DNA of 64,000 nucleotides from Candidatus Poribacteria bacterium (GTDB lineage Bacteria > Poribacteria > WGA-4E > PCPOR2b), in assembly GCA_022822785.1 (NCBI GenBank), contig JAJEAL010000076.1, positions 30,506 through 94,505 of the forward strand, read 5' to 3'. Shown piece by piece: positions 51,505 to 51,811 of the stretch. Every line of letters starts with the position of its first letter. Within the stretch, counting starts at the first letter, position 1. The position numbers and the translations under genes are program-made. A model generated the notes under the pieces. It searched no databases, was not told where the DNA came from, and saw only the letters and a list, made by a program, of their open reading frames with translations.

Positions 51505-51533
51505 GTACTGACATATTATGTCAGTACGCCCCA
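51505..51533. promoter_or_regulatory. Perfect 29-bp palindrome (14-bp arms ggcgtactgacata, one central nucleotide); candidate operator
   Basis: The right arm is the exact reverse complement of the left arm. It lies 30 nt upstream of a consensus promoter. Confidence 0.5.
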
Positions 51534-51563
51534 AAAAGTGACTGATATTTTACAGTTGCGACG

Positions 51564-51592
51564 TTGACAAGTTTTGGAAAATGGCGTAGAAT
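51564..51592 (+). promoter_or_regulatory. Near-consensus sigma-70 promoter (TTGACA, 17-nt spacer, TAGAAT)
   Basis: Read directly from the sequence. The predicted transcription start is about 51600. Confidence 0.55.
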
Positions 51593-51599
51593 AAATAAT

Positions 51600-51785
51600 G
51601 GTGGGGGATCCGAGTGCTAGCTCGAACCCCCCGAAGCAAAACGAGACACGACCTCGAATCGCTTCACCATTGTTAGGGTGAACGCCTAACAATTATTTTA
51701 TAGTATACCCTTTGATGCCATTCGTTTCAATCGAAAACGAAAAGGGCTGCGCGATTTGAGGACGCAGCCCTTTTTTGTTTCCGAT
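51600..51785 (+). ncRNA. Candidate structured small RNA or cis-regulatory leader of about 185 nt, ending in an intrinsic terminator
   Basis: Bounded by the promoter and the terminator hairpin aaagggctgcg...cgcagccctttttt (51741-51780). Internal hairpins are gggggatccgagtgctagctcgaacccccc and attgttagggtgaacgcctaacaat. There is no ORF of 60 aa or more on either strand. Confidence 0.4.
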
Positions 51786-51811
51786 TGACATGATGGCATT
51801 AGGGAGATAAA

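What the first reader, a model, noticed from the sequence alone, without database searches (positions are those of the whole stretch)
51505..51800. Perfect 29-bp palindrome, consensus promoter and a 185-nt terminator-ended structured RNA upstream of a small secreted protein
Right after the ABC permease stop sits a perfect inverted repeat, ggcgtactgacata-t-tatgtcagtacgcc. Thirty nt later is a TTGACA-17-TAGAAT promoter. The predicted transcript (about 51600-51785) has no ORF. It forms at least two clean hairpins and ends with a strong intrinsic terminator only about 30 nt before the start codon of the 129-aa gene. This layout fits either a stand-alone sRNA or a riboswitch/attenuator-type leader, with the palindrome as the operator of a dimeric regulator. 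I do not recognise the RNA as any known riboswitch class, nor as 6S, SRP or tmRNA.
Basis: seen in the sequence. Interest (0 to 1): 0.6.

Follow-up and report, generated by a model that had tools for sequence, protein, structure and literature searches.

The report
Sense–antisense RNA leader module in Poribacteria
The flagged region is a conserved non-coding control module of sponge-symbiont Poribacteria in which one strand appears to encode a terminator-ended mRNA leader and the other a small antisense RNA, placed in front of highly variable secreted-protein genes.

Summary
No Rfam family matches.

The window is from a Candidatus Poribacteria genome. I found 11 further copies of the ~190-nt element in at least 7 Poribacteria assemblies. 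Each complete copy ends 26-30 nt (one at 63 nt) before a small secreted-protein gene. The element is 76-92% identical between canonical copies, whereas the proteins behind it are only 18-36% identical.

The interpretation needs a major change, because the element is two structures on opposite strands:
- **Minus strand, 51600-51695.** The three 5' hairpins fold best here (RNAalifold -43.3 vs -28.3 kcal/mol). Hairpin 1 is 100% paired on minus and 83% on plus. A conserved minus-strand promoter, TTGAAA-17-TATACT (51730..51702), sits immediately upstream of them.
- **Plus strand, 51709-51804.** This half is one long hairpin (-35.0 vs -21.2 kcal/mol). The terminator is at its tip and the ribosome-binding site is paired at its base.

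Best reading: convergent promoters produce a sense leader/attenuator and a cis-antisense RNA, similar to the pT181, pCF10 and RnaG systems. Transcription itself is untested, and how the antisense RNA acts is inferred. The palindrome is more likely an RNA hairpin than an operator.

The parts
51496..51536 (.). Palindromic hairpin. The perfect 29-bp core is 51505-51533 and the flanks extend the pairing. It probably forms in RNA as a 3' hairpin or transcription block: for minus-strand transcripts, for the permease mRNA, or both.
   Evidence: -22 kcal/mol on plus, -27.8 on minus. Copies with changes in both arms precede L171a, L171b and L004a, and one occurs in L002 without the module.
51564..51592 (+). 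Sense promoter P(+), TTGACA-17-TAGAAT. The predicted start site is about 51599.
   Evidence: 11 of 12. The same hexamers with a different spacer occur in L174a. L159 has CTGACA-17-TAGGAT. A -10 of TAGRAT sits at the same position in 7 of 10 complete copies.
51599..51780 (+). Predicted sense leader transcript, from the start site to the U-tract of the terminator. Read-through continues into the 129-aa gene.
   Evidence: Inferred only; no expression data.
51600..51695 (-). Predicted cis-antisense RNA of at least 96 nt. It has three hairpins: H3' 51693-51669, H2' 51665-51633 and H1' 51632-51603. Its 3' end is not defined and may reach the palindrome.
   Evidence: RNAalifold gives -43.3 kcal/mol on minus and -28.3 on plus. 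H1' is an unbroken 12-bp stem in all 9 canonical copies tested. Pair counts are 100% on minus against 83% on plus. In H1 and H2, 36 wobble cells fall on minus and 1 on plus.
51702..51730 (-). Antisense promoter P(-), TTGAAA-17-TATACT. The -35 is 51730-51725 and the -10 is 51707-51702. The predicted start site is about 51695, at the foot of hairpin 3'.
   Evidence: 10 of 12. The scan tool calls it in L159, L171b, L003 and L174a as well. The alignment shows TATACT in 9 of 10 rows and TTGAAA in 8 of 10, with a varying 17-nt spacer.
51709..51804 (+). Long plus-strand hairpin. The intrinsic terminator is at the tip: 51740-51751 pairs with 51763-51774, and the U-tract is 51771-51780. An outer helix pairs 51709-51733 with 51782-51804. 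Its base pairs CCUU (51709-51712) with AGGG (51801-51804) of the Shine-Dalgarno sequence.
   Evidence: RNAalifold gives -35.0 kcal/mol on plus and -21.2 on minus. The outer helix is 89.5% paired against 31-57% in slid controls. Wobble cells number 58 on plus and 5 on minus.
51801..51814 (+). Shine-Dalgarno sequence (AGGGAG) and the ATG start codon at 51812 of the first gene of the cassette.
51812..52201 (+). Regulated gene 1: a 129-aa protein with an N-terminal signal or anchor sequence. This position is hypervariable between copies.
   Evidence: 18-36% identity between copies. No Pfam or NCBIfam match.
52235..54660 (+). Regulated genes 2 and 3: two paralogous membrane-anchored proteins (314 aa at 52235-53179, 377 aa at 53527-54660). 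They belong to a family found only in Poribacteria, with a conserved C-terminal EGLRRLRESDPEAA motif.

Best explanation
The region is a self-contained regulatory module built from two convergent sigma-70-type promoters whose start sites are about 97 bp apart.

**Plus strand.** P(+) at 51564-51592 starts the mRNA of a secreted-protein cassette. Its leader ends in one long hairpin at 51709-51804. The tip of that hairpin is a strong intrinsic terminator and the base pairs with the ribosome-binding site. By default, transcription should stop 31 nt before the gene, and any read-through message should be poorly translated.

**Minus strand.** P(-) at 51730-51702 lies inside the 5' arm of that long hairpin and fires the other way. 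It would make an antisense RNA of at least 96 nt (51695 to about 51600) with three stable hairpins. This RNA is fully complementary to the 5' part of the leader.

**Proposed mechanism.** The antisense RNA and the convergent transcription set how much leader escapes termination or survives. The routes could be RNA duplex formation (attenuation or RNase III cleavage) and promoter interference, as in pT181/pIP501, pCF10 and RnaG/icsA.

**What is shown.**
- Conservation of the module across copies.
- The strand polarity of the two structures.
- Both promoter motifs.
- The fixed distance from terminator to start codon.

**What is inferred.**
- That both strands are actually transcribed.
- How the antisense RNA acts on the leader.
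For: **Conservation.**
- There are 11 further copies in Poribacteria loci, all in the same orientation as a downstream small secreted-protein gene.
- Canonical copies of the element are 76-92% identical, while the proteins behind them are 18-36% identical.
- The terminator-to-ATG distance is 26-30 nt in 10 of 11 copies. That leaves no room for a separate promoter, and the TTGACA-17-TAAAAT at 51785-51813 is not conserved.

**5' half is a minus-strand structure.**
- RNAalifold gives -43.3 kcal/mol and 33 pairs on minus, against -28.3 and 29 pairs on plus.
- Every canonical copy folds 7-12 kcal/mol better on minus.
- Hairpin 1: on minus, 72 of 72 cells are paired, 3 pairs change on both sides, there are 9 extra pair types, and only 2 of 500 shuffles reach this. 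On plus, 83% of cells are paired and there are 12 A.C cells.
- Wobble polarity in H1 and H2 is 36 on minus against 1 on plus.
- The divergent copy L174b keeps all three hairpins through compensatory changes. Its hairpin 2' is a 12-bp helix with four G.U pairs on minus.

**3' half is a plus-strand structure.**
- RNAalifold gives -35.0 against -21.2 kcal/mol.
- Wobble polarity is 58 on plus against 5 on minus.
- The switch in polarity falls exactly at the predicted minus-strand start site.

**Promoters.**
- P(-) hexamers are almost invariant while the 17-nt spacer varies.
- P(+) hexamers are conserved with a different spacer in L174a.

**Precedent.** The same architecture is described for pT181 (PMC4878617) and RnaG/icsA (PMC2879508).
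Against: - There are no expression data, so both promoters are consensus matches only.
- The minus-strand RNA has no canonical terminator. A U-rich tail after hairpin 1' exists only in the window copy.
- The single-sequence strand difference in folding energy (-9.4 kcal/mol) is not unusual. About 10% of random stretches in the window differ by as much. The strand call therefore rests on the comparative pattern.
- The copies are closely related. Hairpins 2 and 3 barely vary among canonical copies, so covariation is limited to hairpin 1 and the one divergent copy.
- The only predicted anti-terminator pairs GUAUACCCUUU (51704-51714) with AAAGGGCUGC. It lies outside the antisense overlap and is no more stable than shuffled sequence. 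The pT181-type logic is therefore not demonstrated.
- The 17-nt spacer and -35 of P(-) also form the 5' arm of the plus-strand helix, which could explain part of their conservation.
- L174b keeps the structures but has neither promoter.
Confidence: 0.55

Rival explanations
1. A single plus-strand RNA of about 185 nt runs from P(+) to the terminator. It is either a stand-alone sRNA or a ligand- or protein-sensing leader (riboswitch or attenuator) in which hairpins 1-3 form the sensor.
For: - P(+) and a strong plus-strand terminator are present and conserved.
- The plus strand folds with z -5.3.
- An alternative pairing of CCCUUU with the 5' arm of the terminator is predicted in 5 of 6 copies.
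Against: - Hairpins 1 and 2 carry A.C mismatches on plus in every copy and are fully paired only on minus.
- No Rfam family matches.
- This model does not explain the conserved TTGAAA-17-TATACT on the opposite strand.
- A stand-alone sRNA would leave the downstream gene without a promoter.
- The truncated copy L171c has lost all three hairpins but keeps a full gene behind the terminator.
Confidence: 0.2
2. The minus-strand RNA is a trans-acting small RNA with targets elsewhere. Its overlap with the cassette leader is incidental, or only a way of co-locating the two.
For: - The minus-strand structure and promoter are as in the best explanation.
- Hairpins 2 and 3 are nearly invariant in sequence between paralogous copies. 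That would suit a shared binding partner.
Against: - All 11 copies sit in one fixed arrangement in front of the same kind of cassette.
- None was found elsewhere in about 300 kb of Poribacteria DNA.
- No obvious single-stranded seed or anti-Shine-Dalgarno motif is present.
Confidence: 0.1
3. The conserved hairpins act at the DNA level. They could be palindromic binding sites for a dimeric regulator, or a recombination or duplication boundary for the cassettes. In this view the 51505-51533 palindrome is an operator.
For: - Hairpin 3 is a 9-bp inverted repeat with a 7-bp spacer. Its stem never varies among canonical copies.
- The loop of hairpin 3 is inverted in L004a.
- The cassettes are tandemly duplicated and lie next to transposases.
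- The palindrome lies upstream of P(+).
Against: - The strand-specific wobble pattern (G.U on one strand, A.C on the other) flips polarity between the two halves. That is a signature of selection on RNA, not on duplex DNA.
- Hairpin 1 covaries.
- The palindrome is missing from 6 of 10 complete modules and is present in L002 without the module. Its two arms change together.
Confidence: 0.07

Closest known systems
Countertranscript-driven transcription attenuators of plasmids pT181, pIP501 and pAMbeta1
   Same: - A sense leader has an intrinsic terminator just before the ribosome-binding site of the regulated gene.
- An antisense RNA is transcribed from a promoter inside the leader, upstream of the terminator.
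- That RNA is folded into stem-loops and is fully complementary to the 5' part of the leader (PMC4878617).
   Different: - The locus is chromosomal and multi-copy, and it regulates secreted-protein cassettes rather than a replication initiator.
- No anti-terminator was found inside the antisense target region.
- The terminator is additionally embedded in a long helix that pairs with the Shine-Dalgarno sequence.
- There is no sequence similarity to any plasmid record.
Convergent-promoter antisense systems: pCF10 prgQ/prgX (Qs/Anti-Q) and Shigella RnaG/icsA
   Same: - Face-to-face promoters lie about 100-220 bp apart (120 bp for RnaG/icsA).
- The transcripts overlap.
- Control combines antisense-promoted premature termination with transcriptional interference (PMC2879508; PMC3181467).
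   Different: - Those antisense RNAs are longer or processed, and they regulate conjugation or virulence genes.
- Here the overlap is about 97 bp, and the module is repeated in front of many divergent paralogous cassettes.
- Nothing has been tested experimentally here.
Type I toxin-antitoxin loci with 5'-overlapping antisense RNA (hok/sok type)
   Same: A small gene for a protein with a hydrophobic N-terminus carries a structured leader that occludes its ribosome-binding site, together with a cis-antisense RNA.
   Different: - The first-gene products are 58-136 aa, look like secreted proteins and are hypervariable.
- In most copies seen they are followed by a large membrane-anchored protein.
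- No toxin family matches.
Riboswitch or other cis-acting leader with a terminator expression platform
   Same: It lies in a 5' untranslated region, ends in a terminator close to the start codon, and has a possible competing anti-terminator pairing.
   Different: There is no Rfam match. The putative sensor hairpins are mismatched on the sense strand and fully paired on the antisense strand.

Membership tests
Antisense-RNA (countertranscript) transcription attenuator, pT181/pIP501 type | The sense leader carries an intrinsic terminator immediately upstream of the ribosome-binding site of the regulated gene | tested here: met
   The terminator stem pairs 51740-51751 with 51763-51774 and has a U-tract ending 31 nt before the ATG. 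It is conserved in all 11 other copies with plus-strand G.U pairs.
Antisense-RNA (countertranscript) transcription attenuator, pT181/pIP501 type | A promoter on the opposite strand lies inside the leader, upstream of the terminator, and produces an RNA complementary to the 5' leader | tested here: inconclusive
   TTGAAA-17-TATACT is present at the right place and conserved. It remains a motif match; no transcript data exist.
Antisense-RNA (countertranscript) transcription attenuator, pT181/pIP501 type | The antisense RNA is itself a stable stem-loop structure | tested here: met
   There are three hairpins on the minus strand. RNAalifold gives -43.3 against -28.3 kcal/mol, and hairpin 1' is 100% paired with compensatory changes.
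Antisense-RNA (countertranscript) transcription attenuator, pT181/pIP501 type | The anti-terminator sequence lies within the antisense target, so that antisense binding releases the terminator | tested here: not met
   The only predicted competitor of the terminator (51704-51714) lies outside the 51600-51695 overlap. Its stability equals that of shuffled sequence.
Antisense-RNA (countertranscript) transcription attenuator, pT181/pIP501 type | Antisense RNA lowers read-through in vivo or in vitro | not testable with these tools
   This needs in vitro transcription or reporter assays.
Riboswitch | A conserved sense-strand aptamer with covarying helices, belonging to a described class | tested here: not met
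   No Rfam hit was found at gathering or E-value thresholds. The sense-strand helices carry A.C mismatches.
Stand-alone terminator-ended sRNA gene on the plus strand | It is an independent transcription unit, and the downstream gene has its own promoter | tested here: not met
   Only 26-30 nt, holding just the Shine-Dalgarno sequence, separate the terminator from the ATG in 10 of 11 copies. The promoter-like site at 51785-51813 overlaps the start codon and is not conserved.
Type I toxin-antitoxin | A small (usually under 60 aa) hydrophobic toxin of a conserved family, repressed by the antisense RNA | tested here: not met
   The first-gene products are 58-136 aa and 18-36% identical to one another. 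No family match was found in Pfam or NCBIfam. PADLOC was not searched.
Operator palindrome for a dimeric regulator (51505-51533) | Conserved half-site sequence at a fixed position relative to the promoter in all copies of the regulated unit | tested here: not met
   It is present before only 4 of 10 complete modules. Its arms differ between copies, with changes in both halves. It also occurs in L002 without the module.

The most novel reading that the evidence does not exclude
Each module is a bistable RNA switch built from convergent promoters and an antisense RNA. It turns its own cassette of hypervariable secreted proteins on or off in individual cells. Hairpins 2 and 3 are nearly identical in all paralogous copies, so the antisense RNA from one cassette could also silence the leaders of the others. 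That would give coordinated or mutually exclusive expression of surface or secreted variants in an uncultured sponge symbiont: an RNA-based counterpart of phase or antigenic variation.
Probability: 0.12. Interest if true: 0.85.

Novelty: new variant of a known kind. Interest (0 to 1): 0.6.

Why it matters
Cis-antisense attenuation modules are textbook for Gram-positive plasmids but are rarely documented on chromosomes. None is known from candidate phyla such as Poribacteria, for which no regulatory RNA has been described.

Here one non-coding module stays conserved in front of genes that diverge almost completely. It therefore marks and controls a Poribacteria-specific family of hypervariable secreted-protein cassettes, which sit in a genomic hotspot holding 0-4 cassettes. 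If confirmed, it would provide three things:
- a new RNA family, suitable for submission to Rfam;
- a handle for finding these cassettes in other genomes;
- a testable hypothesis for how an uncultured sponge symbiont regulates variable secreted proteins.

The case also shows that a promoter-to-terminator 'structured RNA' can really be two structures on opposite strands.

Tried and rejected
- **Rfam.** The whole window at gathering thresholds gave 0 hits. Region 51400-51900 at E up to 10 gave only sub-threshold noise such as microRNA models, SR1 and Thr leader.
- **Metagenome DNA scan.** The pattern ACCTCGAATCGCTTCNNCATT gave 4 hits, all chance matches inside unrelated coding sequence.
- **Viral contigs.** A 15-mer gave 67 chance loci, and none matched the covariance model.
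- **Plasmid and phage collections.** No similarity was found.
- **Small ORFs.** The plus-strand 27-codon ORF and a minus-strand 17-18-codon ORF are not conserved in frame or in start codon.
- **Integron attC.** Hairpin 3 contains GTTAGG...CCTAAC, but the order and spacing are wrong for attC and the match is only partial. This was judged by eye and rejected.
- **pT181-style anti-terminator.** I looked for one inside the antisense target. Duplex and nascent-transcript folds place the competitor outside the overlap instead. The script stopped after 3 copies.
- **YUNR loop motifs.** UUCA occurs in the hairpin 3' loop of most copies but not all. This was judged by eye and not pursued.
- **Single-sequence strand asymmetry in folding energy.** It is not significant against the window background, so I did not use it as the main argument.
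- **Function of the cassette proteins.** Pfam and NCBIfam gave nothing. The AlphaFold model of the 377-aa protein was of low to medium confidence (pLDDT 60.7). Foldseek against the PDB gave no hit below E = 1. The AFDB library was unavailable.
- **P0145-type cassettes and other loci.** P0145-type cassettes (129 aa + 358 aa, L161-L170) and loci L002, L153, L154 and L172 carry no copy of the element.

Full report

Yes. The ABC permease ORF ends at 51495. The perfect palindrome ggcgtactgacata-t-tatgtcagtacgcc occupies 51505-51533. With its flanks it is the longest short-range inverted repeat in the 64-kb window. TTGACA-17-TAGAAT lies at 51564-51592 and matches 11 of 12 consensus positions.

The stretch 51598-51782 folds at -66.5 kcal/mol, z -5.3. 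It contains three hairpins (51603-51632, 51633-51665, 51669-51693) and a GC-rich terminator. The terminator's U-tract ends at 51780, 31 nt before the ATG at 51812. Rfam gives no hit at gathering thresholds on the whole window and only noise in permissive mode.

**2. Where does it come from, and is it conserved?**

The permease is 89-93% identical to proteins of Candidatus Poribacteria genomes. A covariance model built from the first three homologous regions found 11 further copies:
- L003;
- L004, two copies;
- L159 (identical to L160);
- L171, two full copies and one truncated;
- L173;
- L174, L175, L176 and L177, each with one canonical and one divergent copy.

The model found nothing in 600 kb of unrelated control loci. 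There is no similarity to plasmid or phage collections. A DNA-pattern scan of JGI metagenomes returned only chance matches.

Every copy has the orientation of a downstream gene for a small protein (58-136 aa) with a hydrophobic N-terminus. The terminator ends 26-30 nt before that gene's start codon in 10 of 11 copies. In most loci the small gene is followed by a 237-440-aa membrane-anchored protein. This protein belongs to a family of about 200 members found only in Poribacteria.

Canonical copies of the element are 76-92% identical to one another. The small proteins behind it are 18-36% identical, so essentially only the signal peptide is shared. The element is therefore the most conserved part of these cassettes. 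The cassettes sit in a variable hotspot between the permease and an AP_endonuc_2 gene that holds 0-4 cassettes in different genomes. A second site lies next to a catalase-peroxidase gene.

**3. Which strand carries the structure?**

When each copy is folded on both strands, hairpins 1-3 are 7-12 kcal/mol more stable on the minus strand in every canonical copy. Hairpin 1 becomes an unbroken 12-bp stem there.

Counting pairs over the distinct sequences of hairpin 1 gives:

| Measure | Minus strand | Plus strand |
|---|---|---|
| Cells paired | 72 of 72 (100%) | 83% |
| Pairs changed on both sides | 3 | 2 |
| Extra pair types | 9 | 2 |
| Shuffles reaching the observed values | 2 of 500 | 13-91 of 500, depending on the measure |
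| A.C or C.A cells | 0 | 12 |

RNAalifold, run independently on each strand of 51600-51695, gives -43.3 kcal/mol (33 pairs) on minus and -28.3 (29 pairs) on plus. The divergent copy L174b keeps all three hairpins through compensatory changes. Its hairpin 2' is a continuous 12-bp helix with four G.U pairs on the minus strand.

The 3' half behaves in the opposite way. The terminator varies only through plus-strand G.U pairs. On the read-through transcript, RNAalifold extends the terminator outward into one long hairpin, 51709-51804, of 37 pairs. Its base pairs CCUU (51709-51712) with AGGG (51801-51804) of the Shine-Dalgarno sequence. This half scores -35.0 kcal/mol on plus and -21.2 on minus. 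The 19 outer pairs are 89.5% paired against 31-57% in slid controls. They show no double-sided changes.

A direct count of wobble polarity summarises this:

| Region | Wobble on minus only | Wobble on plus only |
|---|---|---|
| Hairpins 1-2 | 36 cells | 1 cell |
| Long 3' hairpin | 5 cells | 58 cells |

The polarity flips between 51695 and 51709.

Two caveats apply. Each structure was derived on the strand it favours, so the wobble count is partly circular. The per-strand RNAalifold energies are the fairer comparison. Also, the single-sequence energy asymmetry (-9.4 kcal/mol) is matched by about 10% of random stretches of the window. The argument therefore rests on the comparative pattern.

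**4. Promoters**

Exactly at the flip lies a minus-strand promoter motif, TTGAAA-17-TATACT (51730-51702, 10 of 12). Its predicted start site, about 51695, is the first base of hairpin 3'. The scan tool calls the same motif in L159, L171b, L003 and L174a. In L171b it is the only promoter-like site called.

In the alignment, TATACT is present in 9 of 10 rows and TTGAAA in 8 of 10. The 17-nt spacer takes several different sequences at constant length, which is the usual signature of a functional promoter. The truncated copy L171c has lost hairpins 1-3 but keeps this motif and the long plus-strand hairpin.

The plus-strand promoter is also supported:
- L174a has TTGACA-17-TAGAAT with a different spacer.
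- L159 has CTGACA-17-TAGGAT.
- L003, L004b and L173 use a TTGCAG/TATAAT promoter about 95 nt further upstream, with a 5' extension.

No conserved promoter fits between the terminator and the start codon. The cassette must therefore be expressed by read-through.

**5. Mechanism proposed**

Two convergent promoters have start sites about 97 bp apart. The plus transcript is the cassette mRNA leader. By default it should terminate at 51771-51780, and any read-through RNA has its ribosome-binding site partly sequestered. The minus transcript is a stable three-hairpin cis-antisense RNA complementary to the first ~97 nt of the leader.

I propose that the antisense RNA and the convergent transcription tune leader read-through or stability. 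This architecture is described for pT181 (PMC4878617), for RnaG/icsA with convergent promoters 120 bp apart (PMC2879508), and for pCF10 (PMC3181467).

One defining step of the pT181 logic is not met. The only predicted competitor of the terminator pairs GUAUACCCUUU (51704-51714) with AAAGGGCUGC. It lies outside the antisense overlap and is no more stable than shuffled sequence. I therefore say it works like these systems, at moderate confidence, and do not file it as a member.

**6. The palindrome**

It occurs before only 4 of 10 complete modules (window, L171a, L171b, L004a). It also occurs after the permease in L002, where the module is absent. Its arms differ between copies, with several positions changed in both arms. 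With its flanks it folds better on the minus strand (-27.8 against -22 kcal/mol), and its U-containing tail is on that strand.

The L003-type modules carry a different palindrome upstream of their promoter. An RNA hairpin is more likely than an operator. It could be the 3' end or a block for minus-strand transcripts, the 3' end of the permease mRNA, or both. Its role is not settled.

**7. The regulated genes**

The small proteins and the membrane-anchored proteins have no Pfam or NCBIfam match. An AlphaFold model of the 377-aa protein (pLDDT 60.7) shows these parts:
- an N-terminal transmembrane helix;
- a small mixed alpha/beta domain;
- a disordered linker;
- a C-terminal four-helix region.

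It has no significant PDB neighbour. Their function remains unknown.

**8. Novelty and verdict**

No Rfam family matches, and a full-text search found no paper on regulatory RNAs of Poribacteria. The general design, a cis-antisense RNA plus a leader terminator, is known. Its features here are new:
- it is chromosomal and multi-copy;
- it sits in front of hypervariable secreted-protein cassettes in a candidate phylum;
- the terminator is nested in a helix that sequesters the Shine-Dalgarno sequence.

I rate it a new variant of a known kind, with interest 0.6. My confidence that this is a conserved non-coding regulatory module is high. Confidence is moderate (about 0.55) for the two-strand sense/antisense reading, and low to moderate for the exact mode of antisense action.

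Noticed in passing
L004:5897-5921 (hairpin 3 of copy L004a): The 7-nt loop of hairpin 3 is the exact reverse complement of the loop in the other copies (GGCATTCACCC against GGGTGAATGCC). This is a hairpin-loop inversion. It shows that loop orientation is tolerated while the stem sequence is kept.
   Followed up: partly
window 51812-54660, and L171:3482-11146: The cassettes are two-gene units: a small secreted protein followed by a membrane-anchored protein ending in a conserved EGLRRLRESDPEAA motif. 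The family has about 200 members, all from Poribacteria-type assemblies. L171 carries three to four cassettes in tandem at the same site as the window. The small proteins are almost unrelated apart from the signal peptide.
   Followed up: partly
Between the permease and the AP_endonuc_2 gene: window 51496-55153; L153:4211-4323; L154:4268-5356; L173:8998-11664: This intergenic site is a variable hotspot. L153 has no insert. L154 has two unrelated small genes. Other genomes have one to four cassettes.
   Followed up: partly
L171:4610-4708: A truncated copy has lost hairpins 1-3. It keeps the TTGAAA-17-TATACT motif, the long plus-strand hairpin with its terminator, and an intact 133-aa gene.
   Followed up: partly
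L174:9420-9607 (also in L175, L176, L177): A divergent copy (65-70% identical to the canonical copies) lies 10 nt after the stop of the preceding 237-aa gene, so it is intercistronic. It keeps all the helices through compensatory changes but has neither of the two promoter motifs.
   Followed up: partly
L003:5930-6085, L004:8075-8212, L173:9200-9330: A second module type has a roughly 95-nt 5' extension and a TTGCAG-17-TATAAT promoter. In L003 and L004b a different palindrome lies upstream (perfect in L004b, cttcaacttgaaac...gtttcaagttgaag; imperfect in L003). In L173 that palindrome is partly deleted.
   Followed up: no
window 49646-49682: A canonical bidirectional intrinsic terminator (AAAAAGCAGGGAAGG-C-CCTTCCCTGCTTTTTTT) lies between the TPR gene and the permease. 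It shows that this genome does use U-tract terminators.
   Followed up: no
L004:8693-9583 (minus strand) and L171:151-1599 (minus strand): DDE transposase genes lie directly beside the cassette arrays. The L004 gene matched Pfam DDE_Tnp_1_3 and DDE_Tnp_1. The L171 gene is annotated DDE_Tnp_1_4.
   Followed up: no
window 51785-51813: A second TTGACA-17-TAAAAT promoter-like site overlaps the Shine-Dalgarno sequence and the start codon of the 129-aa gene. It is specific to the window copy and is probably not functional.
   Followed up: partly
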